A stretch of 64,000 nucleotides of DNA from Christensenella sp. UBA1685. Its GTDB lineage: Bacteria > Bacillota > Clostridia > Christensenellales > CAG-138. The position numbers and the translations under genes are program-made. The stretch's first letter is position 1. Every line of letters begins with the position of its first letter. The DNA lies in assembly GCA_002320595.1 (NCBI GenBank), contig DCKB01000059.1, positions 687-64,686 on the forward strand. The letters run 5' to 3'. The notes under the pieces are model-generated. The model saw nothing but the letters and a program-made list of their open reading frames with translations, was not told the origin of the DNA and searched no databases. Positions 1 through 30,721 of this stretch are shown here, in pieces.

Positions 1-37
1 TCATTTATTGTTTCCCCCTATAGTTGGATTACAGCTA

Positions 38-409
38 TTATGGTACAATTAAGTCAATGATTGGATGCCAAAATGTATGCCGTCCTGAAACGGTCAGCAT
101 TTGGAATGAAACCTCAAAGAGAATTGTGCCAGAAGGGCAATATGATGCGCACGTCGTCCCATTTCCTTGGATGTTTAAACTGCCGTTTAAGAAGCTTTGT
201 GTTCCAGTATAAATTCCTTCAACATAGCAATTGCTTACATAACCGGAAAGATATACTTTTCCATCGATTACAGTTTTTCGAACATAGCCGTCATAATACA
301 CGGTTCCTCTCACTTGAATCCTGCTACCGTCAGCGAGTGTCACGTATTCATTTACCTGATTGGAACGGTTGAAATCCCAACTGGTAACCGTTGAATCAGC
401 CTGCATCAT
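38..409 (-). CDS. hypothetical protein (beta-rich, no family recognised)
   Basis: 123-aa ORF immediately downstream of the 435..713 gene in an AT-rich segment. No convincing RBS and no motif I recognise. Confidence 0.35.
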   Translation of the reverse strand: MMQADSTVTSWDFNRSNQVNEYVTLADGSRIQVRGTVYYDGYVRKTVIDGKVYLSGYVSNCYVEGIYTGTQSFLNGSLNIQGNGTTCASYCPSGTILFEVSFQMLTVSGRHTFWHPIIDLIVP

Positions 410-434
410 AGTCCTGCAAGAAGCGGATTCTTCA

Positions 435-713
435 TCAAAATAATACGATGGTTCGATTCTGTTGTTGTGCCTCGGAAATAGTTTCCATGATTATTAGAAA
501 ATTTTCAACTTCTTCAAGAACGCTAGGAGCAAGATAATCCGTTGAATTTGGATCATGAGGTGTAATAGAAACCCCATACCTTAATTCTAATTCCTCAATT
601 TTTTGCTTTTGAGTTTGAATGGATGCAGTTTCTTGATATGAAACAGCTAATGTTGTACTTAAACAAGAGAGGGAGCAAAGCAACGCCAAAAACGCAGAGA
701 CGAACTTTTTCAT
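435..713 (-). CDS. small secreted protein with N-terminal signal peptide
   Basis: Start moved to MKKFVSAFLALLCSLSC (hydrophobic signal-like N-terminus) with AGGAGGA RBS just upstream. The track ORF (435..770) starts further upstream. Confidence 0.5.
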   Translation of the reverse strand: MKKFVSAFLALLCSLSCLSTTLAVSYQETASIQTQKQKIEELELRYGVSITPHDPNSTDYLAPSVLEEVENFLIIMETISEAQQQNRTIVLF

Positions 714-807
714 TATTTTTTCCTCCTTTATTAAGTTATTGAAAATGTTAAATTTAGTATAGCAATTCATTTATGCCATGTCAAACGAATAAACGGACTA
801 CCGTATG

Positions 808-22042: not shown

Positions 22043-22671
22043 AAGGATTGCTTCGCAAGGACGTTTATGTGCTTTTTCAGGCGAGTCGCGCGCAGCTTCT
22101 CATCGTGCTGCTGTTTCTCGTCATCTCCATGACAATGAACAACACGCTTATCGCCTATATGCTGGCACTTTACACAGCGATGATGCCGATTACCGTGATT
22201 GCGCTTGACGAGCGGAGCCGCTTTGACCGCTTTGCCCTCGCCCTGCCATGGTCGCGCGCGCAGATTGTGCTGAGCAAATATGCGCTGAGCCTTGCCGCGG
22301 CCTGCCTTGCCGCGCTTGCATACCTTGCCGGCGTGCTGACGCTCGGCTCCGCCATAAGCGGCGGAGTCAGCCTGCAGGATGCGCTTACGACATTCTGCGC
22401 AATGCTCACCGTCGGCACGCTCCTGCCTGCGCTGATGCTCCCCTTTGTGTTCCGCTTCGGCGTGGATAAGGGCCGGATGTGGATTATGCTCATCGCAATT
22501 GCTTTCGGCATTGGAGCAGGCCTTCTTTCCATGGATGAGGGCAGCGCGGTTTCCCAACTGGCGAACCGCCTGACGGCGCTTCCACTCTGGCTGCTGCCGC
22601 TTGCGGGGCTCACCGTTTTTGCGCTTTCCGCATTCGTTTCGGTGCAGATCTACCGCCGGCGGGAGCTGTAA
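22039..22671 (+). CDS. ABC-2 type transporter permease
   Basis: 210 aa with six hydrophobic segments. ATG overlaps the ATPase stop (ATGA). Confidence 0.72.
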   Translation: MKGLLRKDVYVLFQASRAQLLIVLLFLVISMTMNNTLIAYMLALYTAMMPITVIALDERSRFDRFALALPWSRAQIVLSKYALSLAAACLAALAYLAGVLTLGSAISGGVSLQDALTTFCAMLTVGTLLPALMLPFVFRFGVDKGRMWIMLIAIAFGIGAGLLSMDEGSAVSQLANRLTALPLWLLPLAGLTVFALSAFVSVQIYRRREL

Positions 22672-22695
22672 GCGGTTCGGCCGGCATCAAAACAC

Positions 22696-22730
22696 AAGGC
22701 CCGGCGCATAGGGCAGTGTTCGTAAAACAG
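22696..22730 (+). repeat. left arm of ~35-bp imperfect inverted repeat bounding the AT-rich cassette
   Basis: AAGGCCCGGCGCATAGGGCAGTGTTCGTAAAACAG matches the reverse complement of 24336-24370 (AAGGCCCGGCACATAGGGCGTGATTTGTAAAACAG). Confidence 0.75.
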
Positions 22731-22825
22731 TAATAAAAGTAGCGGAATTACTCATCGCAACAGCAAGTGAACAGGATGCGCCAACCGTTGACAGCCGCCG
22801 CCCGTCCTGCTTTTGTGGTAATCAA

Positions 22826-22856
22826 GGGAGCGACAGACTAAAGTGCTGTCGCTCCC
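22826..22856. repeat. 11-bp-stem hairpin
   Basis: GGGAGCGACAG-N9-CTGTCGCTCCC. Confidence 0.6.
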
Positions 22857-22896
22857 GCCCATTATGAGGAAAAACGGTTGAATTGTTCACATCCTT

Positions 22897-23193
22897 ATGC
22901 TATATTTTTTAATATATAGAGAACGGAAAATTAGAAGTTTTAGGAGAGAAAATGTGGTATTGTCTATCTTTTTAATAGGTTTTTTGTTAAGTGGAGCTTG
23001 CTATGGGGGCAATCTTTTTCTACAGAGTTTCTGCATTAAGAAAAAACTATACTGGCTACAGAGGATGAGTATGGTGATTATATCCATCATTCCAACTATA
23101 ATCAAATCATTGGTATTTGTTTTTCCTCTCACCCATTTCATTTTATTTCGATTTTTAATTGGAAATTGTGGTTATTTGCAATTGCAACCGTAA
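22897..23193 (+). CDS. hypothetical membrane protein fragment (possible 5' part of a frameshifted gene)
   Basis: AT-rich ORF with hydrophobic segments. An internal GTG after TAGGAGAG is an alternative start. Overlaps the next ORF in another frame. Confidence 0.3.
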   Translation: MLYFLIYRERKIRSFRRENVVLSIFLIGFLLSGACYGGNLFLQSFCIKKKLYWLQRMSMVIISIIPTIIKSLVFVFPLTHFILFRFLIGNCGYLQLQP

Positions 23194-23573
23194 TAGTAAC
23201 GAGCCTTATCATTATGTTGAAACATGAACCACATGAGGACGTACCTTTAGCACCTTTATGCATAGAAGCTGCATGTATGGAAATACCTCAAAGAGTGATG
23301 ATGCAGACCTTTGTTTGTGGTATTTTATCAATGCAGAAACTGAACACTTTATGGAGTATTTTTATAACGGCATTGATTTGGTGTGCGGGCATCCTGGTTC
23401 AAGCATTTGTTTCAAAACAAATGAATTTCAAACATTTATTTTTAGAAGTGGTTGCTTCCTTTGTTTTCTCAATGGGCATAGGATATGTATTTTATTCTTC
23501 AGAATGTTTAGTTATTCCGATGCTGGCACATGCTGCTGAAAGATTTGTTACGAGGAAGTGTCTGACAAAATAA
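23166..23573 (+). CDS. hypothetical multi-pass membrane protein (faint CPBP/Abi-like E-x3-R ... H-x3-E pattern)
   Basis: 135 aa with 3-4 hydrophobic helices. MEIPQR and HAAER could be degenerate CPBP motifs; I cannot verify this. Confidence 0.4.
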   Translation: MWLFAIATVIVTSLIIMLKHEPHEDVPLAPLCIEAACMEIPQRVMMQTFVCGILSMQKLNTLWSIFITALIWCAGILVQAFVSKQMNFKHLFLEVVASFVFSMGIGYVFYSSECLVIPMLAHAAERFVTRKCLTK

Positions 23574-23898
23574 CGAATTTGCAACATGTTCGTACACCGT
23601 GATGAGCAAGAAATTTTAATTTACCAAGAGACGATTTGAATAAGAGTAGGAACAAAAACAAGAAATTGCATAAATTCCAATCTGTAGAGCTACGTAAATT
23701 TTCAGTTTGTCGGAGCAACAAATTCCAAGTTGTCAAGTTAATGCCCTATTGAAAAAATGAATACCCCCCGCCCATCACAGCGGCATACAAGCAGTAAGTC
23801 TGAAAAGATTTTCTGCTTTTTTTGCGCTCATTTTTGGCAGACCGCACATTCCTGTTGTTTAGAAATTGATGGGGAAGTTTGCCCAAAGAGGGCTTGCG

Positions 23899-23973
23899 TA
23901 CCGTAGTAGTAATGAAAAGAACACCGCATATAATTAGAAGAACGGCATGGGGCTACCGTAGTAGTGATGAAAA
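23899..23973 (+). repeat. 20-bp direct repeat pair (TACCGTAGTAGTRATGAAAA)
   Basis: Copies at 23899-23918 and 23954-23973, 19 of 20 identical, each ending in ATGAAAA. Confidence 0.7.
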
Positions 23974-24335
23974 AAATCAAAAGAAGCGTTTGGCATTTTT
24001 CGGTTTCTTTCGTGGAGGGGGACAAACAGCGGGCAGAACACGCCGCCACTATCGCTATATTGATGAAACCAGCCATACCGTCCCCTTTGCGAATTGCAGT
24101 AAGGGCATAGAAAAAATCCGTTGGATTTTCCGCCTATTTGCCCCGCTGCGGTTTTGTAGGTATTGAGAGCAGCCTCACAGAGGAAAGCGGCAGTTTTTCA
24201 GAGCAAGATTCTACCACGGTGCCAAAATCCGCATATCTGCGGTTTTGCCCCTTTGGTAAATCTTGTTGGGGAGTGCCTTCCCCAAGCCCTGCCATATGAA
24301 AAGGCCGTGTATCGTTCCTGATACACGGCCTATAA

Positions 24336-24370
24336 CTGTTTTACAAATCACGCCCTATGTGCCGGGCCTT
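24336..24370 (-). repeat. right arm of the inverted repeat bounding the AT-rich cassette
   Basis: See 22696-22730. Confidence 0.75.
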
Positions 24371-24378
24371 CCAGCGTG

Positions 24379-24409
24379 TCGAAAAAGTGGCGAAAGGCCA
24401 CTTTTTCGA
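24379..24409. repeat. hairpin family H copy 1 (TCGAAAAAGTGGC-N5-GCCACTTTTTCGA)
   Basis: 13-bp perfect arms. Identical arms at 30691-30721 and a co-varying copy at 42578-42606. Confidence 0.85.
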
Positions 24410-24614
24410 GTTTAATGCAGCTTTTGCCTCTCGCTGCGCTCCCGGCGGCAAAAGCTGCAAGGTGCGAAACCCTAAGGGGTTTCAATCGTTCCGCCGTACG
24501 TGCCGCCGCCGGATTGAACGTCAGGGGTTGCGCCCCCTGACAACCCCAATATACGGCAATTCCGCCGCCAGTCCTTTTCCGGGATTGGCGGCGTTAATGG
24601 TTTTACAGGATGCT

Positions 24615-27600
24615 TTACAGCTCCACAACGCCTTCAAACACGAGGTCTATCTCGCCGCGCATACGAAGCGAGCCGTCCGAGGAATAGCGCACGGAAAGCA
24701 CGCCGCCCGGCACTTTCACGGCGATGTCCGTATCTGTCGCGCAGAGGCCGTTTTCCACCGCTGCCGCCACGGCTGCGCACGCACCGGTGCCGCAGGCCCA
24801 GGTTTCGCCGCTGCCGCGCTCCCACACGCGCATGCGCAGAGTGGTTTCATCTAACACGCGCACAAACTCCGCGTTCACGCGCTCCGGGAAAATGGGCGCA
24901 TGCTCGAGCAGCGGTCCTTCCGAGGCCACATCCAGCGTATCCACATCTTCCACAAAAGCCACGGCATGCGGATTGCCGACATTTACGCACGTGATGCGGT
25001 ACCCCCGGCCTACATCCACCGCGTAATCCAGCACGCGGGGCACGGGCAGTTCCACGGGCACCGCTACGGATTCAAACCGCGCCCGGCCCATTGCTACCTC
25101 TGCCGCCCGCACAATGCCGTTGCGCTTGTATAGCCGCACCGCGCGCACGCCGCCCGCAGTTTCCACCGAAACCGAAAGGCGTTCCGGCGGGATGATGCCC
25201 CGGTCGTAGGCATACTTGGCAAGGCAGCCGATGGCGTTGCCGCCCATTGTGGCTACTGTGCCATCCAGGTTATATACGACCATGCGGAAATCCGCCCTGT
25301 CCGAAGGGTAAAGCAGGCACACGCCTTCCGCGCCGATGCCGAAGTGGCGTTCGCTCAGGCGCACGGCAAGGCCGGCGGGGTTGTCGATACGCTGCCGGCG
25401 GCAGTCGAAGCAAAGGTAATCGTTCCCGCTTGCCTGCATTTTGGAAAAACGGAGCCGTTCGCGGTGCCTGCGGCGGTGGTTTAAATCCACAAGCTCCGTG
25501 TTGAGCTGGCTGTAACGGCTTTCCATGCTATCCGCAAGGGCGTTCGCGGTATCGATGGAGGTGAGGCATGGGATGCTTTTTTCCACTGCCTTGCGGCGGA
25601 TGCGCACGCTGTCCCGCGTGGGGATGCGGCCCTTGGAGGAGGTGGAAACGACATAGGCGATCTTTCCTTCGTCCATCAGCCGGAGGATGGCATCATCCCC
25701 GGTGGAAAGTTTTTGCACTTCCGTAACCGGAAGGCCTGCGCTGCGGAGCGCCCGCGCGTTGCCGGGCGTTGCATACAGCGTGCAGCCAAGGTGCAAAAAC
25801 CGCTTTGCGGTGTCGTAAATTTCCCTGCGGTCCGTGCGTTTGACGCTGAACAGCACACCGCCGCGGCGATCCATTTGGTATCCTGCCGCCACAAGGCCCT
25901 TGTAGAGCGCCTCGGAGAGCGTGCCTGCAACGCCGAGCACCTCGCCGGTGGATTTCATCTCCGGCCCAAGGAGCGTATCCACATCCGCAAGCTTTTCAAA
26001 GGAAAACACCGGCACCTTCACCGCCACATAGGGCGGGATGGGGTAAAGCCCCGTGCCGAACCCCATCGCAGGCAGCGTTTCGCCAAGCATTGCGCGCGTT
26101 GCAAGCTCCACCATCGGCACGCCGGTGACCTTGCTGATATACGGGATCGTGCGCGAGGATCGGGGATTAACTTCAATGACATACAGCTCCCCGCCATAGA
26201 TCAGGTATTGGATGTTCACAAGCCCCTGCACCTTGAGCGAGAGCGCAAGGCGCGTGGAGCAATCCACAATGCGTTCCAGCATCTCATCGTCCACATTCCA
26301 GGCCGGATATACGGCGATGGAATCGCCTGAATGGATGCCCGCCCGCTCAATGTGCTCCATCACGCCCGGGATGAGGACATGCGTGCCGTCGGAAATCGCA
26401 TCCACTTCAAGCTCCGTGCCCATCAGGTACTGGTCGATGAGGATCGGGTTTTCAATGCCTTGGGCGAGGATGATCGCCATATATTCGCGCACATCTTCCG
26501 GCTGGAAGGCGATGATCATGTTCTGCCCGCCAAGCACATAGGACGGGCGCAGCAGCACCGGGTAGCCGAGCTCCGCCGCCGCAGCGAGCGCTTCATCCGT
26601 GGTCATGACGGTACGGCCGAGCGGGCGCTTGATGTCAAGCTCGGTCAAAAGCGCATCGAAGCGCTCCCGGTCCTCCGCCATGTCGATGCTGTCCGCCGGT
26701 GTGCCGAGGATGCGCACGCCCTGTTCGGAAAGGAAGTTCGTAAGCTTGATGGCCGTCTGCCCGCCGAAGGCCACGACTACGCCGTAAGGCTTTTCCGTGG
26801 CGATCACGCCCATCACATCCTCCGGCGTGAGCGGCTCGAAATACAGCCGGTCTGCGGTGTCGAAATCCGTGGAAACGGTTTCCGGGTTGTTGTTGACGAT
26901 CACGACCTCGTAGCCGCGCTTGCGGAGCGCCCACACGCAGTGGACGGAGGCGTAATCAAACTCGATGCCCTGGCCGATGCGGATCGGGCCGGAGCCGAAC
27001 ACGAGCACGGTCTTGCGTTGGCCGCGCCTGCGGGCGAGGAATTCCGCAGCCTCGTTTTCCTCCGCGTAGGCGGCGTAGAAATACGGCGTTTCCGCGCGGA
27101 ATTCCGCCGCACAGGTATCGACCATCTTGTAAACCGGCAGGAGCGGGGTTTTGATTTCCTGCCCGGAGATGCTTTGGATGACCTTGTCCGGGTAGCCCAT
27201 GCGCTTCGCTTCCCGGTACAGCGCATCGGTGAGCGGTTCGGCGAAAAGGCGCGCTTCCAGCCGCACGAGGTTTGTGAGCTTATAAAGGAACCATTCGTCG
27301 ATCTTCGTGACGGCGTGGATTTCGTCCGCGGAGATGCCGGCCTTGCATGCCGCAAACACGGTGAACAGGCGCCGGTCGTCGCAAACGCGGAGCTTTTCCA
27401 TGAGTTCAGCGCGGGAAAGGCCCTCAAGCGCCGGGGTATTGAGGCTCATGTGGCCGATTTCCGCACCGCGCACAGCCTTCATGAGCGCTTCTTCAAACGT
27501 TGCGCCGATGGCCATCACCTCGCCGGTGGCCTTCATCTGCGTGCCGAGCGTGCGCTTGGCGTAAACGAACTTGTCAAACGGCCATTTGGGGAGCTTGACC

Positions 27601-28664
27601 ACAACGTAATCGAGCGCCGGCTCGAAACAGGCGCAGGTCTTGCCGCCGGTCACAGCGTTCGGGATTTCCGGCAGCGTATAGCCGAGGGCGATTTTCGCCG
27701 CAACCTTGGCGATCGGGTAACCCGTGGCCTTGGAGGCGAGCGCGCTCGAACGGCTCACGCGGGGGTTGACCTCAATGACGGCATATTCAAAGCTTTCCGG
27801 GTTGAGCGCAAACTGGCAGTTGCAGCCGCCCTCGATGCCGAGCGAATCGATGATCCTGAGCGCGGCGGAGCGCAGCATTTGGTATTCCTTATCCGCGAGG
27901 GTGACGGCGGGTGCAATGACAATGGAATCGCCCGTGTGTACGCCCACGGGATCGAAGTTTTCCATGGAGCAGATGGTGATGCAGTTGCCCGCGGTGTCCC
28001 GCATGACCTCAAATTCGATCTCCTTCCAGCCCGCAATGCATTGCTCCACAAGGATCTGGTGAATTGGCGACATGCGAAGCCCGCGCTCCGCGATTTCCCT
28101 GAGCTCGGCCTCGTCCGCCGCGATGCCGCCGCCGCTTCCGCCCAGCGTGAACGCCGGGCGCACGATGAGCGGATAGCCGATCTCCGAAGCGAAGGCGAGT
28201 GCGCCTTCAAGGGATTCCGTTACCATAGAGGGGATGACGGGCTGGCCGATTGCCTCCATTGTGTCCTTGAAGCGCTGGCGGTCCTCCGCACGGTCGATGG
28301 TGTCCGGCTTCGCGCCGAGAAGCTTTACGCCGTGCTCCTCCAGAAACCCCTCTTTGGCGAGCTGCATGGCGAGCGTAAGCCCCGTCTGCCCGCCGAGCGT
28401 GGGCAGGATGCTGTCCGGCTGCTCTTTTTCGATGATGCGCCGCAGCGTGGGCAGCGTGAGCGGCTCAATGTAAACATGGTCCGCCATGTGGCCGTCCGTC
28501 ATGATGGTGGCGGGGTTGGAATTGACGAGGACGACCTCCACCCCTGCGTCTTTGAGCACTTCGCAGGCCTGCGTGCCGGCATAATCGAACTCCGCGGCCT
28601 GGCCGATGACGATGGGTCCCGAGCCGATGACAAGCGTGCGCCGGATGTCCTTATTGAGCGGCAT
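24615..28664 (-). CDS. carB: carbamoyl-phosphate synthase large subunit with in-frame C-terminal DapF-like domain
   Basis: 1349 aa in one uninterrupted frame. About 1070 aa of CarB (two ATP-grasp halves plus an MGS-like domain) followed by about 279 aa of diaminopimelate-epimerase-like sequence. Confidence 0.9.
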   Translation of the reverse strand: MPLNKDIRRTLVIGSGPIVIGQAAEFDYAGTQACEVLKDAGVEVVLVNSNPATIMTDGHMADHVYIEPLTLPTLRRIIEKEQPDSILPTLGGQTGLTLAMQLAKEGFLEEHGVKLLGAKPDTIDRAEDRQRFKDTMEAIGQPVIPSMVTESLEGALAFASEIGYPLIVRPAFTLGGSGGGIAADEAELREIAERGLRMSPIHQILVEQCIAGWKEIEFEVMRDTAGNCITICSMENFDPVGVHTGDSIVIAPAVTLADKEYQMLRSAALRIIDSLGIEGGCNCQFALNPESFEYAVIEVNPRVSRSSALASKATGYPIAKVAAKIALGYTLPEIPNAVTGGKTCACFEPALDYVVVKLPKWPFDKFVYAKRTLGTQMKATGEVMAIGATFEEALMKAVRGAEIGHMSLNTPALEGLSRAELMEKLRVCDDRRLFTVFAACKAGISADEIHAVTKIDEWFLYKLTNLVRLEARLFAEPLTDALYREAKRMGYPDKVIQSISGQEIKTPLLPVYKMVDTCAAEFRAETPYFYAAYAEENEAAEFLARRRGQRKTVLVFGSGPIRIGQGIEFDYASVHCVWALRKRGYEVVIVNNNPETVSTDFDTADRLYFEPLTPEDVMGVIATEKPYGVVVAFGGQTAIKLTNFLSEQGVRILGTPADSIDMAEDRERFDALLTELDIKRPLGRTVMTTDEALAAAAELGYPVLLRPSYVLGGQNMIIAFQPEDVREYMAIILAQGIENPILIDQYLMGTELEVDAISDGTHVLIPGVMEHIERAGIHSGDSIAVYPAWNVDDEMLERIVDCSTRLALSLKVQGLVNIQYLIYGGELYVIEVNPRSSRTIPYISKVTGVPMVELATRAMLGETLPAMGFGTGLYPIPPYVAVKVPVFSFEKLADVDTLLGPEMKSTGEVLGVAGTLSEALYKGLVAAGYQMDRRGGVLFSVKRTDRREIYDTAKRFLHLGCTLYATPGNARALRSAGLPVTEVQKLSTGDDAILRLMDEGKIAYVVSTSSKGRIPTRDSVRIRRKAVEKSIPCLTSIDTANALADSMESRYSQLNTELVDLNHRRRHRERLRFSKMQASGNDYLCFDCRRQRIDNPAGLAVRLSERHFGIGAEGVCLLYPSDRADFRMVVYNLDGTVATMGGNAIGCLAKYAYDRGIIPPERLSVSVETAGGVRAVRLYKRNGIVRAAEVAMGRARFESVAVPVELPVPRVLDYAVDVGRGYRITCVNVGNPHAVAFVEDVDTLDVASEGPLLEHAPIFPERVNAEFVRVLDETTLRMRVWERGSGETWACGTGACAAVAAAVENGLCATDTDIAVKVPGGVLSVRYSSDGSLRMRGEIDLVFEGVVEL
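24618..25454 (-). other. DapF-like (diaminopimelate epimerase fold) domain of the CarB fusion
   Basis: LRFSKMQASGNDY..., NLDGTVATMGGNAIGC (Gly where the first catalytic Cys is expected), VNVGNPHAV, ERGSGETWACGTGACA (second Cys present). Confidence 0.85.
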
Positions 28665-30690: not shown

Positions 30691-30721
30691 TCGAAAAAGT
30701 GGCCGTGAGCCACTTTTTCGA
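30691..30721. repeat. hairpin family H copy 2
   Basis: TCGAAAAAGTGGC-CGTGA-GCCACTTTTTCGA. Confidence 0.85.

What the first reader, a model, noticed from the sequence alone, without database searches (positions are those of the whole stretch)
22696..24370. AT-rich 1.6-kb cassette bounded by ~35-bp imperfect inverted repeats, with no transposase
Seen: between the ABC-2 permease gene and the end of the carB fusion, base composition drops sharply, with long A/T runs and AT-rich codons. The segment is delimited by AAGGCCCGGCGCATAGGGCAGTGTTCGTAAAACAG (22696-22730) and its imperfect reverse complement at 24336-24370. The outer 19 nt carry one mismatch and the terminal GTAAAACAG is identical. Inside are only two overlapping membrane-protein ORFs in different frames (22897-23193 and 23166-23573). 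These may be one frameshifted gene, with faint ExxxR / HxxxE spacing reminiscent of CPBP/Abi immunity proteases. There is also a 20-bp direct-repeat pair and about 750 bp without convincing ORFs. I found no direct target duplication. Inference: this is a horizontally acquired, non-autonomous element or the eroded remnant of one, for example an immunity-gene cassette.
Basis: partly seen in the sequence, partly recalled or inferred. Interest (0 to 1): 0.6.

Follow-up and report, generated by a model that had tools for sequence, protein, structure and literature searches.

The report
Mobile-element remnant inside a terminator hairpin
The AT-rich "cassette" is a 1,647-bp recombinase-less leftover of a serine-recombinase mobile element, inserted in the loop of a host terminator hairpin, carrying a broken membrane-protease-like gene and a probable transfer origin; some strains of the same gut bacterium lack it, so it is real but fairly ordinary.

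Summary
GC falls to 34.7% at 22867-23816 against a 57% window mean (z -5.1), and a 40-nt, 83% inverted repeat bounds the segment.

Strain comparison explains it. Contigs of the same species have an empty site that is a perfect hairpin, AAGGCCCGGCGC-AT-GTGCCGGGCCTT. The insert is exactly 22710-24356 (1,647 bp), with AT present at both junctions.

The same tip motif was found at 38 non-redundant sites among the loci recovered from gut Clostridia. Each has an A-run, a C/G-rich arm, then TT or AT. In six loci a 572-aa large serine recombinase gene with a DUF4368 domain ends about 79 nt from the tip.

The interior is a slice of a widespread conjugative-element backbone:
- An AT-rich cargo gene for a divergent CPBP/Rce1-like protein, broken by a 5-bp duplication at 23100-23109. 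Intact 204-206-aa homologs exist.
- The conserved non-coding region that lies upstream of mobC-relaxase in relatives (candidate oriT).
- An element-borne terminator.

The window encodes no recombinase. The locus occurs as empty, cassette, cassette plus IS-like disruption, and cassette plus conjugative element. I rate it a new member of a known kind (decayed, CIME-like integrative element).

The parts
22696..22709 (.). Left arm of the host terminator hairpin (attB left half), ending in the crossover dinucleotide AT (22708-22709).
   Evidence: The empty site in L001, L004, L006 and L096 reads AAGGCCCGGCGC-AT-GTGCCGGGCCTT. As RNA it folds into a 10-bp stem, -26.9 kcal/mol.
22710..24356 (+). The whole inserted element (1,647 bp), absent from empty-site strains.
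   Evidence: BLAST of the window against empty loci: L001 6562-6671 matches window 22600-22709, and L001 6670-6813 matches 24357-24499. The 2-nt overlap is AT.
22710..22730 (+). Left terminal tip, AGGGCAGTGTTCGTAAAACAG (attL element-side half-site).
   Evidence: It is an imperfect inverted repeat of 24336-24356. The motif AGGGCRKKRTTYGTAAAACAG recurs at element ends in other genomes.
22731..22866 (+). Left backbone segment derived from a conjugative element (the region just downstream of the cargo slot in relatives). It includes the hairpin GGGAGCGACAG..CTGTCGCTCCC.
   Evidence: 22776-22866 is 85-88% identical to L053-L063. Weaker similarity extends back to about 22733.
22867..23816 (+). AT-rich cargo module (34.7% GC) inserted in the backbone. 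Relatives L057 and L063 have about 62 nt here instead.
   Evidence: The gene-only homology (22927-23618, 91%) is to contigs of 32-33% GC (L094, L095).
22878..22906 (+). Promoter-like site, TTGAAT-17 nt-TATATT with TG before the -10 hexamer. An AGGAGAG ribosome-binding site follows at 22942-22948.
   Evidence: Consensus scan. The ribosome-binding site was read directly from the sequence.
22954..23573 (+). Divergent CPBP/Rce1-like membrane-protein gene with a GTG start, disrupted by a frameshift (pseudogene in this lineage).
   Evidence: Intact homologs of 204-206 aa, 91-92% identical, cover the merged ORFs. Pfam PF02517 scores 25.8 bits on ORF2.
23100..23109 (+). 5-bp tandem duplication AATCA|AATCA that causes the frameshift.
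   Evidence: DNA alignment with the intact copies L088 and L092 shows a 5-nt gap exactly here. The protein alignment switches frame between ..IIPTII and IGICFSSHPF...
23817..24295 (+). Non-coding region homologous to the region upstream of mobC-relaxase in the conjugative-element family. It contains the direct repeats at 23898, 23953 and 24049.
   Evidence: 95% identical to L057 and L063 and 82% to L059-L062, always just upstream of MobC and the relaxase.
24200..24295 (+). Nearly invariant core of the non-coding region (candidate oriT), with the inverted repeat CCAAAATCCGCA-TATC-TGCGGTTTTG and GGGGAGTGCCTTCCCC.
   Evidence: Almost identical in 9 otherwise diverged elements while the flanks diverge. 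DNA fold of 24170-24300: -26.1 kcal/mol, z -3.85. Assignment as oriT is by position only.
24302..24331 (-). Element-borne terminator hairpin next to the right tip (12-bp stem followed by TTTC on the minus strand).
   Evidence: An equivalent hairpin lies between the recombinase stop codon and the tip in autonomous relatives.
24336..24356 (-). Right terminal tip. Its reverse complement is AGGGCGTGATTTGTAAAACAG (attR element-side half-site).
   Evidence: The same tip plus about 160 nt of interior occurs at a different hairpin site in another species (L024).
24357..24370 (.). Second copy of AT (24357-24358) plus the right arm of the host hairpin (attB right half).

Best explanation
What is there. 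The segment 22710-24356 is a recombinase-less derivative of an integrative element that is moved by a TndX/TnpX-like large serine recombinase (LSR) carrying a DUF4368 domain.

How it got there. The element integrated by site-specific recombination at the apex of a GC-rich terminator hairpin. That hairpin lies between the ABC-2 permease gene and the convergent carB-dapF gene. The crossover was at the loop dinucleotide AT, which is why AT sits at both junctions. It is also why each hairpin arm now abuts a 21-nt element tip, producing the apparent 35-40-nt inverted repeat.

What remains between the tips:
- A promoter-driven, AT-rich cargo gene for a divergent CPBP/Rce1-like membrane protein, inactivated here by a 5-bp duplication.
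- The conserved non-coding region that in related conjugative elements precedes mobC-relaxase. This is the probable oriT.
- A terminator hairpin next to the right tip.

How it would move. It encodes no recombinase or transfer protein. It could only be excised or moved by an LSR (plus a directionality factor) and a relaxase/type IV secretion system supplied in trans. In this species it behaves as a vertically inherited fossil.

Its non-coding region also serves as a 116-nt homology with incoming conjugative elements. In one lineage a large element appears to be joined to the cassette through that repeat.

Shown: insertion boundaries, the empty site, the AT duplication, the frameshift, the homologies and the population polymorphism. 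Inferred: that an LSR made the junctions, that the non-coding region is an oriT, and the order of events.
For: 1. Empty versus filled alleles in the same species. 8 of 23 contigs and 2 of 23 are empty. The junctions overlap by exactly 2 nt, AT.

2. The empty site is a stable hairpin with AT in the centre of its 6-nt loop.

3. The tip motif was found in 42 genome loci and 19 metagenome loci. The family-like hits, taken from these loci, give 38 non-redundant flanks. These show A at >=70% of positions -19 to -14, C/G-rich positions -11 to -3, and only A or T at -2 and -1 (TT 22, AT 11, AA 4, TA 1). This is the upstream half of intrinsic-terminator hairpins.

4. Two other complete elements sit in hairpin loops:
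   - L075/L084, 5.3 kb, in AAAAAAATCCCGGAGG-cTTat-CCTCCGGGATTTTTT.
   - L073, 873 bp, in AAAAGGCTGCGC-GTAATG-GCGCAGCCTTTT.

5. In L043, L034, L039, L074, L078 and L086 a 572-aa protein ends 79-81 nt from the tip. All six have different flanks and are 91-94% identical to each other. The protein has Resolvase, Recombinase, Zn_ribbon_recom and DUF4368 domains. DUF4368 LSRs are the known multi-targeting, TndX-like clade with a dinucleotide core (PMC10083194).

6. The interior segments 22776-22866 and 23817-24295 match the backbone of a family ordered T4CP-Maff2-[cargo]-non-coding region-MobC-relaxase-Rep-DnaC-like.

7. The core of the non-coding region is almost invariant in 9 elements.

8. Intact CPBP-like homologs exist, and the 5-bp duplication is confirmed at DNA level.

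9. No LSR homolog is present in the 64-kb window.

10. Recombinase-less remnants (CIMEs), and elements that lack transfer genes but carry oriT-like sequences found upstream of mobC, are described in Faecalibacterium (PMC12084326).
Against: - No LSR gene was seen next to this particular tip variant (AGGGCGTGATTTG.. / AGGGCAGTGTTCG..). The LSR-linked tips differ at 3-4 of 21 positions.
- The cognate enzyme, a circular form and an attP junction were not observed.
- The core AT is palindromic. For serine integrases this would remove orientation control, and most family members have TT.
- This exact right end was seen at only one other site (L024). A scan of JGI metagenomes for it at non-window sites found nothing.
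- oriT status rests on position and conservation only.
- The LSR-less relative L073 lacks the central inverted repeat of the core.
- Complementarity between flanks and tips is only modest: mean best stem 4.03 against 3.52 in shuffles.
Confidence: 0.75

Rival explanations
1. In-situ deletion scar. A complete conjugative element with two copies of the non-coding region first integrated at the hairpin. The cassette is what remained after recombination between the two copies deleted the body of the element. The recombination could be RecA-dependent or relaxase-mediated oriT-oriT.
For: - The conjugative-element form of the same site exists. The left side is L003 and the right side is L098 plus 4 further contigs.
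- The window's non-coding region is a chimera. It matches the copy upstream of MobC up to about 24207 and the copy next to the right end from about 24253.
- Relaxases can recombine directly repeated oriT copies (PMC4902927).
Against: - Flank SNPs place the conjugative-element form inside one cassette-bearing lineage: 0 SNPs in 6.7 + 14.3 kb against L002/L097.
- The cassette itself occurs in at least 3 backgrounds that are 7-14 SNPs apart per 6.7 kb. Deletion-first would therefore need several identical deletions or flank recombination.
- The arrangement of core, hairpin and right tip also exists in the diverged mini-element L073. It is therefore not a one-off scar.
Confidence: 0.3
2. Still-active hitchhiker. 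The cassette, and relatives such as L073 and L075, form a class of trans-mobilisable cassettes with att sites and an oriT. Resident LSRs excise and integrate them, and conjugative elements transfer them, so they carry single cargo genes between gut Clostridia.
For: - Three independent LSR-less elements have intact tips on both sides and one or a few cargo genes: the window, L073 (873 bp, GNAT-like gene) and L075/L084.
- The window and L073 share the module of core, hairpin and right tip.
- The same right end occurs at a second hairpin site in another species (L024).
- The relaxase family is very widespread (8,000 hits with E <= 1e-50, the scoring cap).
Against: - The visible part of L024 (from 24198 on) cannot distinguish the cassette form from a larger form.
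- All copies of this cassette in the species are at one site and are identical.
- Its cargo gene is broken.
- No circular junction was seen.
- L073 lacks the core inverted repeat.
Confidence: 0.25
3. MITE-like derivative of a DDE transposon, with terminal inverted repeats and a 2-bp target-site duplication.
For: Terminal inverted repeats, a 2-bp duplication and the absence of a transposase fit superficially.
Against: - Only 21 nt of the repeat belongs to the element.
- The gene found next to these tips is a serine recombinase, never a DDE transposase.
- The motif occurs only at the two cassette ends in the window, so there is no multi-copy family here.
- The interior is conjugative-element backbone, not the internally deleted copy of an insertion sequence.
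Confidence: 0.04
4. The conjugative-element form of the locus is a metagenome-assembly chimera joined through the shared core of the non-coding region. Only the empty and cassette alleles are real.
For: - The core is repeated in many co-resident elements.
- Several contigs break at 24220-24260 (L007, L099, L100).
- All of the evidence comes from short-read assemblies.
Against: - Five contigs show the same right-hand join.
- Identical stretches across the join are shorter than the 141-nt k-mer of those assemblies.
- The L098 copy carries its own variants: two SNPs and an extra C.
Confidence: 0.2

Closest known systems
CIMEs and decayed ICE/IME remnants (cis-mobilisable elements; described for the Streptococcus thermophilus ICESt1/ICESt3 family, from my own knowledge, and catalogued in Faecalibacterium, PMC12084326)
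   Same: - Flanked by both attachment-site junctions.
- Lacks recombination and conjugation genes.
- The interior derives from an ICE/IME backbone and carries cargo.
- Can sit in composite structures with a complete element.
   Different: - The ends here are of the serine-recombinase type with a 2-bp core. The classic CIMEs use tyrosine-integrase att sites.
- The neighbouring conjugative element appears joined through the oriT-like repeat, not by accretion at an att site.
- The remnant is only 1.65 kb and holds a single broken gene.
Tn4451/Tn5397-type elements and the multi-targeting DUF4368 large serine recombinases (TnpX/TndX clade; PMC10083194)
   Same: - Imperfect inverted half-sites around a crossover dinucleotide that appears at both junctions.
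- Many different target sites for closely related recombinases.
- The Resolvase-Recombinase-Zn_ribbon-DUF4368 architecture of the linked enzyme.
   Different: - The best match to any PLSDB plasmid record is at most 45.5% identity, and no named relative turned up.
- The targets here form a structured class: the loop of A-run/GC-stem terminator hairpins, with a TT or AT core. I did not find this described in the four literature searches I ran on serine recombinases, targets and oriT.
- The window element has no recombinase at all.
[quoted passage not shown]
   Same: Small integrated elements that keep an oriT-like sequence from the region upstream of mobC-relaxase, and are presumed to be mobilisable in trans.
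   Different: Those elements still encode a serine or tyrosine integrase. The window cassette does not.
CPBP/Abi (Rce1-like, PF02517) intramembrane proteases, including bacteriocin-immunity proteins
   Same: - A multi-pass membrane protein of about 205 aa.
- Pfam hit just above threshold.
- The conserved E-x-x-x-R and a C-terminal His.
- A CPBP gene occupies the same cargo slot of a related conjugative element (L055/L056).
   Different: - The motif-2 histidine is absent, and motif 3 reads HAAER instead of HxxxN/D. Both are invariant features of this subfamily.
- No bacteriocin gene lies nearby.
- The gene is frameshifted here.
Elements that target hairpins or terminators by other chemistries (IS1397/IS110-type insertion sequences in REP palindromes, class C group II introns after terminators). 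This is from my own knowledge.
   Same: Insertion into palindromic or terminator sequences in intergenic DNA. Such sites are relatively safe for the host.
   Different: The enzyme class and the ends are entirely different. Here the crossover is at the loop apex and leaves a 2-bp repeat.

Membership tests
Integrative element of the large-serine-recombinase (TndX/TnpX-like, DUF4368) type | Encodes a large serine recombinase | tested here: not met
   No recombinase ORF lies in 22710-24356. tblastn of the L043 LSR against the whole window gives no hit better than E = 0.34. The cassette can therefore only be a non-autonomous derivative.
Integrative element of the large-serine-recombinase (TndX/TnpX-like, DUF4368) type | Junctions share only a 2-bp crossover dinucleotide, flanked by imperfect inverted half-sites | tested here: met
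   AT is at both junctions, and the empty site has a single AT. The 21-nt tips are imperfect inverted repeats.
Integrative element of the large-serine-recombinase (TndX/TnpX-like, DUF4368) type | The same end type is physically linked to an LSR gene in autonomous relatives | tested here: met
   In 6 loci the LSR stop codon lies 79-81 nt from the tip. The domains are confirmed. The tip sequences differ at 3-4 of 21 positions from the window's.
Integrative element of the large-serine-recombinase (TndX/TnpX-like, DUF4368) type | Recombination of attP x attB by the enzyme | not testable with these tools
   This needs an in vivo or in vitro assay.
CIME / decayed ICE-IME remnant | Both att junctions retained, recombination and conjugation genes lost, interior derived from an ICE/IME | tested here: met
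   Definition as in PMC12084326.
CIME / decayed ICE-IME remnant | Mobilisable in cis after accretion of a complete element at one of its att sites | tested here: inconclusive
   A complete element is adjacent in some contigs, but it is joined through the repeat of the non-coding region and not at an att site. Mobility itself is untestable here.
CPBP/Abi intramembrane protease (PF02517) | Pfam gathering threshold | tested here: met
   ORF2 scores 25.8 bits and the merged protein 22.8 bits, against a cut-off of 22.4. This is marginal.
CPBP/Abi intramembrane protease (PF02517) | Catalytic motifs EExxxR, FxxxH and HxxxN/D | tested here: not met
   Across 11 homologs the invariant residues are MEIPQR (one Glu only), no His in the motif-2 region (WCxxIxxQA), and H193-A-A-E-R197 in place of HxxxN/D.
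CPBP/Abi intramembrane protease (PF02517) | Intact reading frame | tested here: not met
   The 5-bp duplication at 23100-23109 is present in all copies from this species.
oriT of the associated MobC/relaxase (PF03432) module | Conserved non-coding segment with inverted repeats immediately upstream of mobC-relaxase | tested here: met
   In L063 the core ends about 100 nt upstream of mobC.
oriT of the associated MobC/relaxase (PF03432) module | A nic site cleaved by the relaxase; supports mobilisation | not testable with these tools
   No experimentally defined oriT sequence for this family was available to compare.
MITE / DDE-transposon derivative | Terminal repeats shared with a transposase-encoding insertion sequence; multi-copy in the genome | tested here: not met
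   The motif occurs only at the two cassette ends in the window. No DDE transposase was seen next to these tips in the loci whose interiors were examined.
Integron gene cassette | An attC recombination site belonging to the cassette, with an integron integrase and attI context | tested here: not met
   The hairpin belongs to the host and exists in empty sites. No integrase lies nearby.

The most novel reading that the evidence does not exclude
Three linked readings are not excluded.

(a) The LSR family linked to AGGGC..GTAAAACAG tips has evolved to recognise the apex of intrinsic-terminator hairpins as a generic safe harbour. This is a structured, multi-copy target class for serine integrases.

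(b) It supports a population of minimal, gene-cassette-like hitchhikers that need both an LSR and a conjugation system in trans. Each consists of two tips, an oriT-like core and one cargo gene. Examples are the window and L073.

(c) The oriT-like core left in the chromosome acts as a docking site where a conjugative element integrates. The route would be homologous or relaxase-mediated oriT recombination, not the element's own integrase.
Probability: 0.3. Interest if true: 0.6.

Novelty: new member of a known kind. Interest (0 to 1): 0.4.

Why it matters
For this locus, the result shows that the odd inverted repeat is not a new kind of transposon end. It is a host terminator split by a site-specific insertion, and the cassette is a decayed integrative element carrying a dead cargo gene. 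That is useful for annotation and of modest biological weight.

Three wider points could matter if confirmed:

1. A DUF4368 serine-recombinase lineage with 38 distinct insertions, all in the loops of terminator-like hairpins. This would be a clear example of a structured multi-target specificity. It would interest both mobile-element biology and integrase engineering.
2. Recombinase-less cassettes that keep only att tips plus an oriT-like core. These illustrate how far integrative elements can be reduced while possibly remaining mobilisable.
3. A chromosomal oriT-like relic that coincides with the joint to a large conjugative element. This would be a natural candidate for integration at an oriT copy or by homology, so remnants may seed hot spots for new acquisitions.

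Tried and rejected
- Rfam scan of 22500-24800 at E <= 1: only two chance-level hits (DLEU2_6, SurA), so no known RNA family.
- blastn of the cassette against PLSDB plasmids: no match.
- blastn against phage records: only two unannotated 'Bacteriophage sp.' gut contigs. These turned out to be conjugative-element fragments, with T4CP, DUF3801 and PadR.
- Scan of IMG/VR viral contigs for the end motif: 0 hits.
- Scan of JGI metagenomes for the exact right end at non-window sites: 0 hits.
- Exact-protein look-up of ORF2 (135 aa): not on record. The 98-aa gene call was found on only one contig.
- I tried to reach the far end of the conjugative-element form through close relaxase homologs (P0001, P0014, P0016, P0018). 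Those elements carry other LSRs, and their ends lack the GTAAAACAG motif. The recombinase and att modules are therefore swapped between backbones, and the cognate LSR of the window's tips remains unidentified.
- The internal LSR of the conjugative element is only 43% identical to the tip-linked LSR.
- Comparison of the window CPBP-like protein with the CPBP cargo of L055: not significantly similar (E = 1.7). They are independent CPBP acquisitions.
- Test of whether element tips rebuild the split hairpin: only a weak excess of complementarity (4.03 against 3.52 +/- 0.13). I do not rely on it.
- Cluster look-up for an organism name: no names. The host is an unnamed gut bacterium with about 57% GC.
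- I considered an integron cassette, a MITE and a native AT-rich gene, and rejected all three (see the membership tests).
Full report

Yes. A 300-nt GC profile drops from about 60% to 33-38% between 22800 and 23850 and recovers by 24450. With 900-nt windows, the minimum for the entire 64-kb window starts at 22851 (34.4%). The module 22867-23816 has 34.7% GC against a mean of 57.2% (sd 4.4), z = -5.1.

The inverted repeat is found by the repeat tool as arms 22696-22735 and 24331-24370, 40 nt and 83% complementary. Its outer 19-mer occurs only at these two positions in the window, against 0.04 expected by chance.

The two ORFs, the direct repeats (23898, 23953, and a weaker copy at 24049) and the lack of convincing ORFs in 23574-24335 are all as described. 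Rfam finds nothing credible.

**2. What bounds the segment?**

Exact-protein look-ups with the flanking ABC-2 permease and the CarB-DapF fusion returned 23 contigs each from the same species. These fall into alleles:

| Allele | Permease-side look-up | carB-side look-up |
|---|---|---|
| Empty | 8 | 2 |
| Cassette identical to the window | 10 | 13 |
| Much larger element | 1 | 5 |
| Contig stops, or diverges, inside the cassette | 4 | 3 |

In the empty allele the permease stop and carB are 295 bp apart. The site reads ...AAAACAC-AAGGCCCGGCGC-AT-GTGCCGGGCCTT-CCAGCG....

BLAST of the window against the empty loci gives matches ending at 22709 and restarting at 24357, with a 2-nt overlap. The insert is therefore 22710-24356 (1,647 bp), and AT is present on both sides.

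The empty site folds into a 10-bp GC-rich stem with the 6-nt loop GCAUGU. AT is at its centre (-26.9 kcal/mol). On the minus strand the stem is followed by GTGTTTTG, so it looks like the terminator at the end of the carB side.

The outer 14 nt on each side are the two arms of a pre-existing host hairpin. Only the inner 21 nt belong to the insert: AGGGCAGTGTTCGTAAAACAG, and AGGGCGTGATTTGTAAAACAG when the right end is read inward.

**3. Whose ends are these?**

A degenerate pattern covering both tips (AGGGCRKKRTTYGTAAAACAG) hit 42 loci in the species-representative genome collection and 19 in metagenome contigs. About 9 hits are expected by chance in the genome scan. The hits in Bacillus, Pseudomonadota, Thaumarchaeota and similar taxa look like these chance matches.

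The rest are Oscillospiraceae, Lachnospiraceae, Faecalibacterium, Ruminococcus, Oscillibacter and unclassified Clostridia. Many lie a few tens of nt from a contig end, as expected for a repeated mobile element.

In L043, L034, L039, L074, L078 and L086 a gene reads toward the tip and stops 79-81 nt from it. All six have different outside flanks. The gene encodes a 572-aa protein, and the copies are 91-94% identical to each other. Its domains are Resolvase, Recombinase, Zn_ribbon_recom and DUF4368.

This is the architecture reported for the multi-targeting, TndX-like clade of large serine recombinases, whose sites share a crossover dinucleotide (PMC10083194). A 2-bp overlap flanked by imperfect inverted half-sites is what serine-integrase attL and attR junctions look like.

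**4. What do they target?**

The family-like hits give 38 non-redundant outside flanks. These form a clear profile:
- A at >=70% of positions -19 to -14.
- C/G-rich positions from -11 to -3.
- Only A or T at -2 and -1 (TT 22, AT 11, AA 4, TA 1).

This is the ascending half of an A-tract plus GC-stem terminator hairpin.

Both sides can be seen in two more complete elements:
- L075/L084 (5.3 kb) sits in AAAAAAATCCCGGAGG-cTTat-CCTCCGGGATTTTTT.
- L073 (873 bp) sits in AAAAGGCTGCGC-GTAATG-GCGCAGCCTTTT.

Together with the window, that makes three of three fully visible insertions at the loop apex of a perfect hairpin. Flank-to-tip complementarity is only slightly above shuffled controls. I therefore do not claim that the junctions rebuild terminators.

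**5. What is inside?**

The interior is layered.

*Backbone.* Segments 22776-22866 and 23817-24295 are 82-97% identical to a very common conjugative-element backbone. Its gene order, seen in L053 and L055-L066, is as follows:
- DUF6017 - DUF3801 - TraG-like coupling protein - Maff2
- [variable cargo slot]
- non-coding region
- MobC/NikA-like protein - PF03432 relaxase
- Phage_rep_org_N - DnaC/IstB-like protein - ... - LSR - Maff2 - TrbL - VirB4-like protein

The relaxase search returned 8,000 proteins with E <= 1e-50, which is the scoring cap.

*AT-rich module.* In L057 and L063 the two backbone pieces are separated by about 62 nt. In the window they are separated by the 950-bp AT-rich module. 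That module carries a promoter-like TTGAAT-17-TATATT with an extended -10, an AGGAGAG ribosome-binding site, and the two ORFs.

*One broken gene.* A search with the merged ORFs found intact 204-206-aa proteins at 91-92% identity over the full length. The alignment shows the frame switch between ..SIIPTII and IGICFSSHPF... DNA alignment with the intact copies in L088 and L092 shows a 5-nt insertion in the window, the tandem duplication AATCA|AATCA at 23100-23109. All copies in this species carry it, so the gene is a fixed pseudogene.

A second difference is a T5 run at 22969-22973, against T6 in P0122. This moves the start to GTG 22954, as in P0121.

*Protein family.* ORF2 passes the Pfam Rce1-like/CPBP threshold marginally, 25.8 bits against 22.4. 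The subfamily invariably has MEIPQR, no motif-2 histidine, and HAAER instead of HxxxN/D. It is therefore a divergent CPBP-like protein that may not be catalytic.

Gene-only homology (91%) lies in contigs of 32-33% GC (L094, L095). This explains the composition: a low-GC gene was carried into a mid-GC element and then into a high-GC host.

**6. The 'ORF-less' 750 bp**

Region 23817-24295 is the non-coding DNA that in all relatives lies directly upstream of mobC-relaxase. Its last ~95 nt (24200-24295) are almost invariant in nine otherwise diverged elements. They contain the inverted repeat CCAAAATCCGCA-TATC-TGCGGTTTTG. As single-stranded DNA the region folds far better than shuffles (z -3.85).

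By position and conservation this is the candidate oriT. The Faecalibacterium mobilome study likewise refers to a putative oriT upstream of mobC and to transfer-gene-less elements that retain it (PMC12084326). No nic site could be tested.

Next to the right tip lies a 12-bp-stem terminator on the minus strand (24331-24302). Autonomous relatives have an analogous hairpin between the LSR stop codon and the tip.

**7. Relation to the large element at the same site**

L003 (permease side) is identical to the window from the left tip up to about 24253, the first differences being at ~24172 and ~24244. It then continues into MobC, relaxase, Rep and a DnaC-like gene.

L098 plus 4 similar contigs (carB side) has the same right tip, hairpin and core back to about 24180. 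It then continues into a diverged second copy of the non-coding region, a 100-aa gene and an HTH_16 gene.

The window's non-coding region is a hybrid. It matches the left copy up to about 24207 and the right copy from about 24253. The cassette and the large form therefore differ by one recombination within a ~116-nt direct repeat. This could be RecA-dependent or relaxase-mediated recombination between oriT copies. Both are known in principle (PMC4902927; PMC3264647, abstract only).

The direction of the event is addressed by flank SNPs:
- Empty strains form one tight group, 13-21 SNPs per 6.7 kb from the filled strains.
- The cassette occurs in at least three backgrounds that are 7-14 SNPs apart (L002, L005, L009).
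- The large form has 0 SNPs in 21 kb relative to the L002/L097 cassette background.

This favours 'cassette first, large element docked later' over 'cassette is an in-situ deletion scar'. Recombination between strains, or repeated deletions, cannot be excluded.

The same arrangement of core, hairpin and right tip occurs in the diverged 873-bp element L073. This also argues that the arrangement is older than this locus.

One caveat applies. All of these are short-read metagenome contigs, and several break at 24220-24260. A repeat-induced chimera for the large form is possible, though five contigs agree.

**8. Mechanism, with confidence**

Shown:
- Precise insertion into a hairpin loop with a 2-bp repeat.
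- Polymorphism within the species.
- Tips shared with LSR-bearing elements.
- Backbone and cargo origins.
- The frameshift.
- No recombinase in the cassette or in the 64-kb window.

Inferred:
- An LSR made the junctions.
- The cassette lost its LSR by deletion.
- It could now move only with an LSR (plus a directionality factor) and a relaxase/type IV secretion system supplied in trans.
- In practice it is a vertically inherited fossil, because it is seen at a single site in this species. The exact right end turned up at only one other site, L024, in another species.

An oddity is the palindromic AT core. It would not impose orientation on a serine integrase.

**9. Comparison with what is known, and novelty**

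The closest descriptions are:
- Decayed ICE/IME remnants and CIMEs.
- TndX/TnpX-type multi-targeting LSR elements.
- The transfer-gene-less, oriT-bearing elements described in Faecalibacterium.

I file the cassette as a new member of that known kind. It is not a new class, not a MITE and not an integron cassette (see the membership table).

Two things are less ordinary, and I did not find them described in the four literature searches I ran on these topics. The first is the consistent terminator-loop target of this LSR lineage. The second is the existence of several LSR-less, one-gene cassettes that retain the tips and an oriT-like core. Both are worth a focused follow-up, but they rest on comparative inference only.

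**10. Verdict**

- Interest is 0.4.
- The most novel reading that is not excluded has probability about 0.3. It holds that terminator-apex targeting supports trans-mobilised att-plus-oriT cassettes, and that the oriT relic serves as a docking site.

Noticed in passing
L073 (metagenome contig CDZQ01020003.1), reverse strand, element of 873 bp ending at L073:1242: A miniature LSR-less element with the same tip type. It carries a single GNAT-like acetyltransferase gene, a partial copy of the core of the non-coding region, and a hairpin next to its right tip. It is inserted in the loop of the perfect hairpin AAAAGGCTGCGC-GTAATG-GCGCAGCCTTTT.
   Followed up: partly
L075:3958-9273 and L084 (human-gut metagenome contigs): A 5.3-kb element with the same tips and a TT core in a terminator hairpin. 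It keeps the ~80 nt that normally follow the LSR gene but has no LSR. Its cargo looks pseudogenised: a split AMP-ligase-like ORF and a resolvase C-terminal fragment.
   Followed up: partly
L009:7489-7627 (equivalent to window 23526 onward), plus one similar contig: In some strains the cassette sequence breaks off inside the CPBP-like gene into unrelated DNA that begins GGTGCCGTCAAGAGTTATGCGC... This looks like the end of an insertion sequence, giving a fourth allele of the locus.
   Followed up: no
window 24379-24409 and 30691-30721: The hairpin TCGAAAAAGTGGC-loop-GCCACTTTTTCGA occurs twice in the window, both times in intergenic DNA. The 24370-24614 spacer holds several further perfect hairpins. 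This is a small dispersed hairpin family, unrelated to the cassette ends and present in empty-site strains too.
   Followed up: partly
window 24615-28664 (minus strand): CarB (large subunit of carbamoyl-phosphate synthase) is fused in frame to a C-terminal DAP-epimerase (DapF) domain, giving a 1,349-aa protein. The fusion is conserved in all strains seen, including a 156-member cluster at 90% identity.
   Followed up: no
window 1-780: A second strongly AT-rich island (about 37% GC) lies at the window edge, upstream of greA-lysS. It has two small minus-strand ORFs, one of which looks like it has a signal peptide. It may be another foreign insertion that is cut by the window boundary.
   Followed up: no
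L055:10404-13650 and L056:8895-12129: In related conjugative elements two large-serine-recombinase genes lie tail to tail, 571 aa with DUF4368 and 499 aa without. This suggests that two elements abut, or that one has inserted next to the other's recombinase.
   Followed up: no
L055:3903-4622 and L056:2376-3095: A different, canonical CPBP/Rce1-like gene (239 aa, PF02517 at 73.6 bits) occupies the same cargo slot of a related conjugative element, next to a Cys_rich_KTR gene. CPBP genes therefore appear to be recurrent cargo at this position, acquired independently.
   Followed up: partly
L088-L091 (contigs of 48-50% GC): The block equivalent to window 22776-24295, with an intact CPBP-like gene, sits in an unrelated chromosomal context between a DUF1232 gene and uncharacterised genes. 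It has no tips and is followed by only ~35 nt of the sequence leading to mobC. This is another decayed fragment of the same conjugative-element region.
   Followed up: partly
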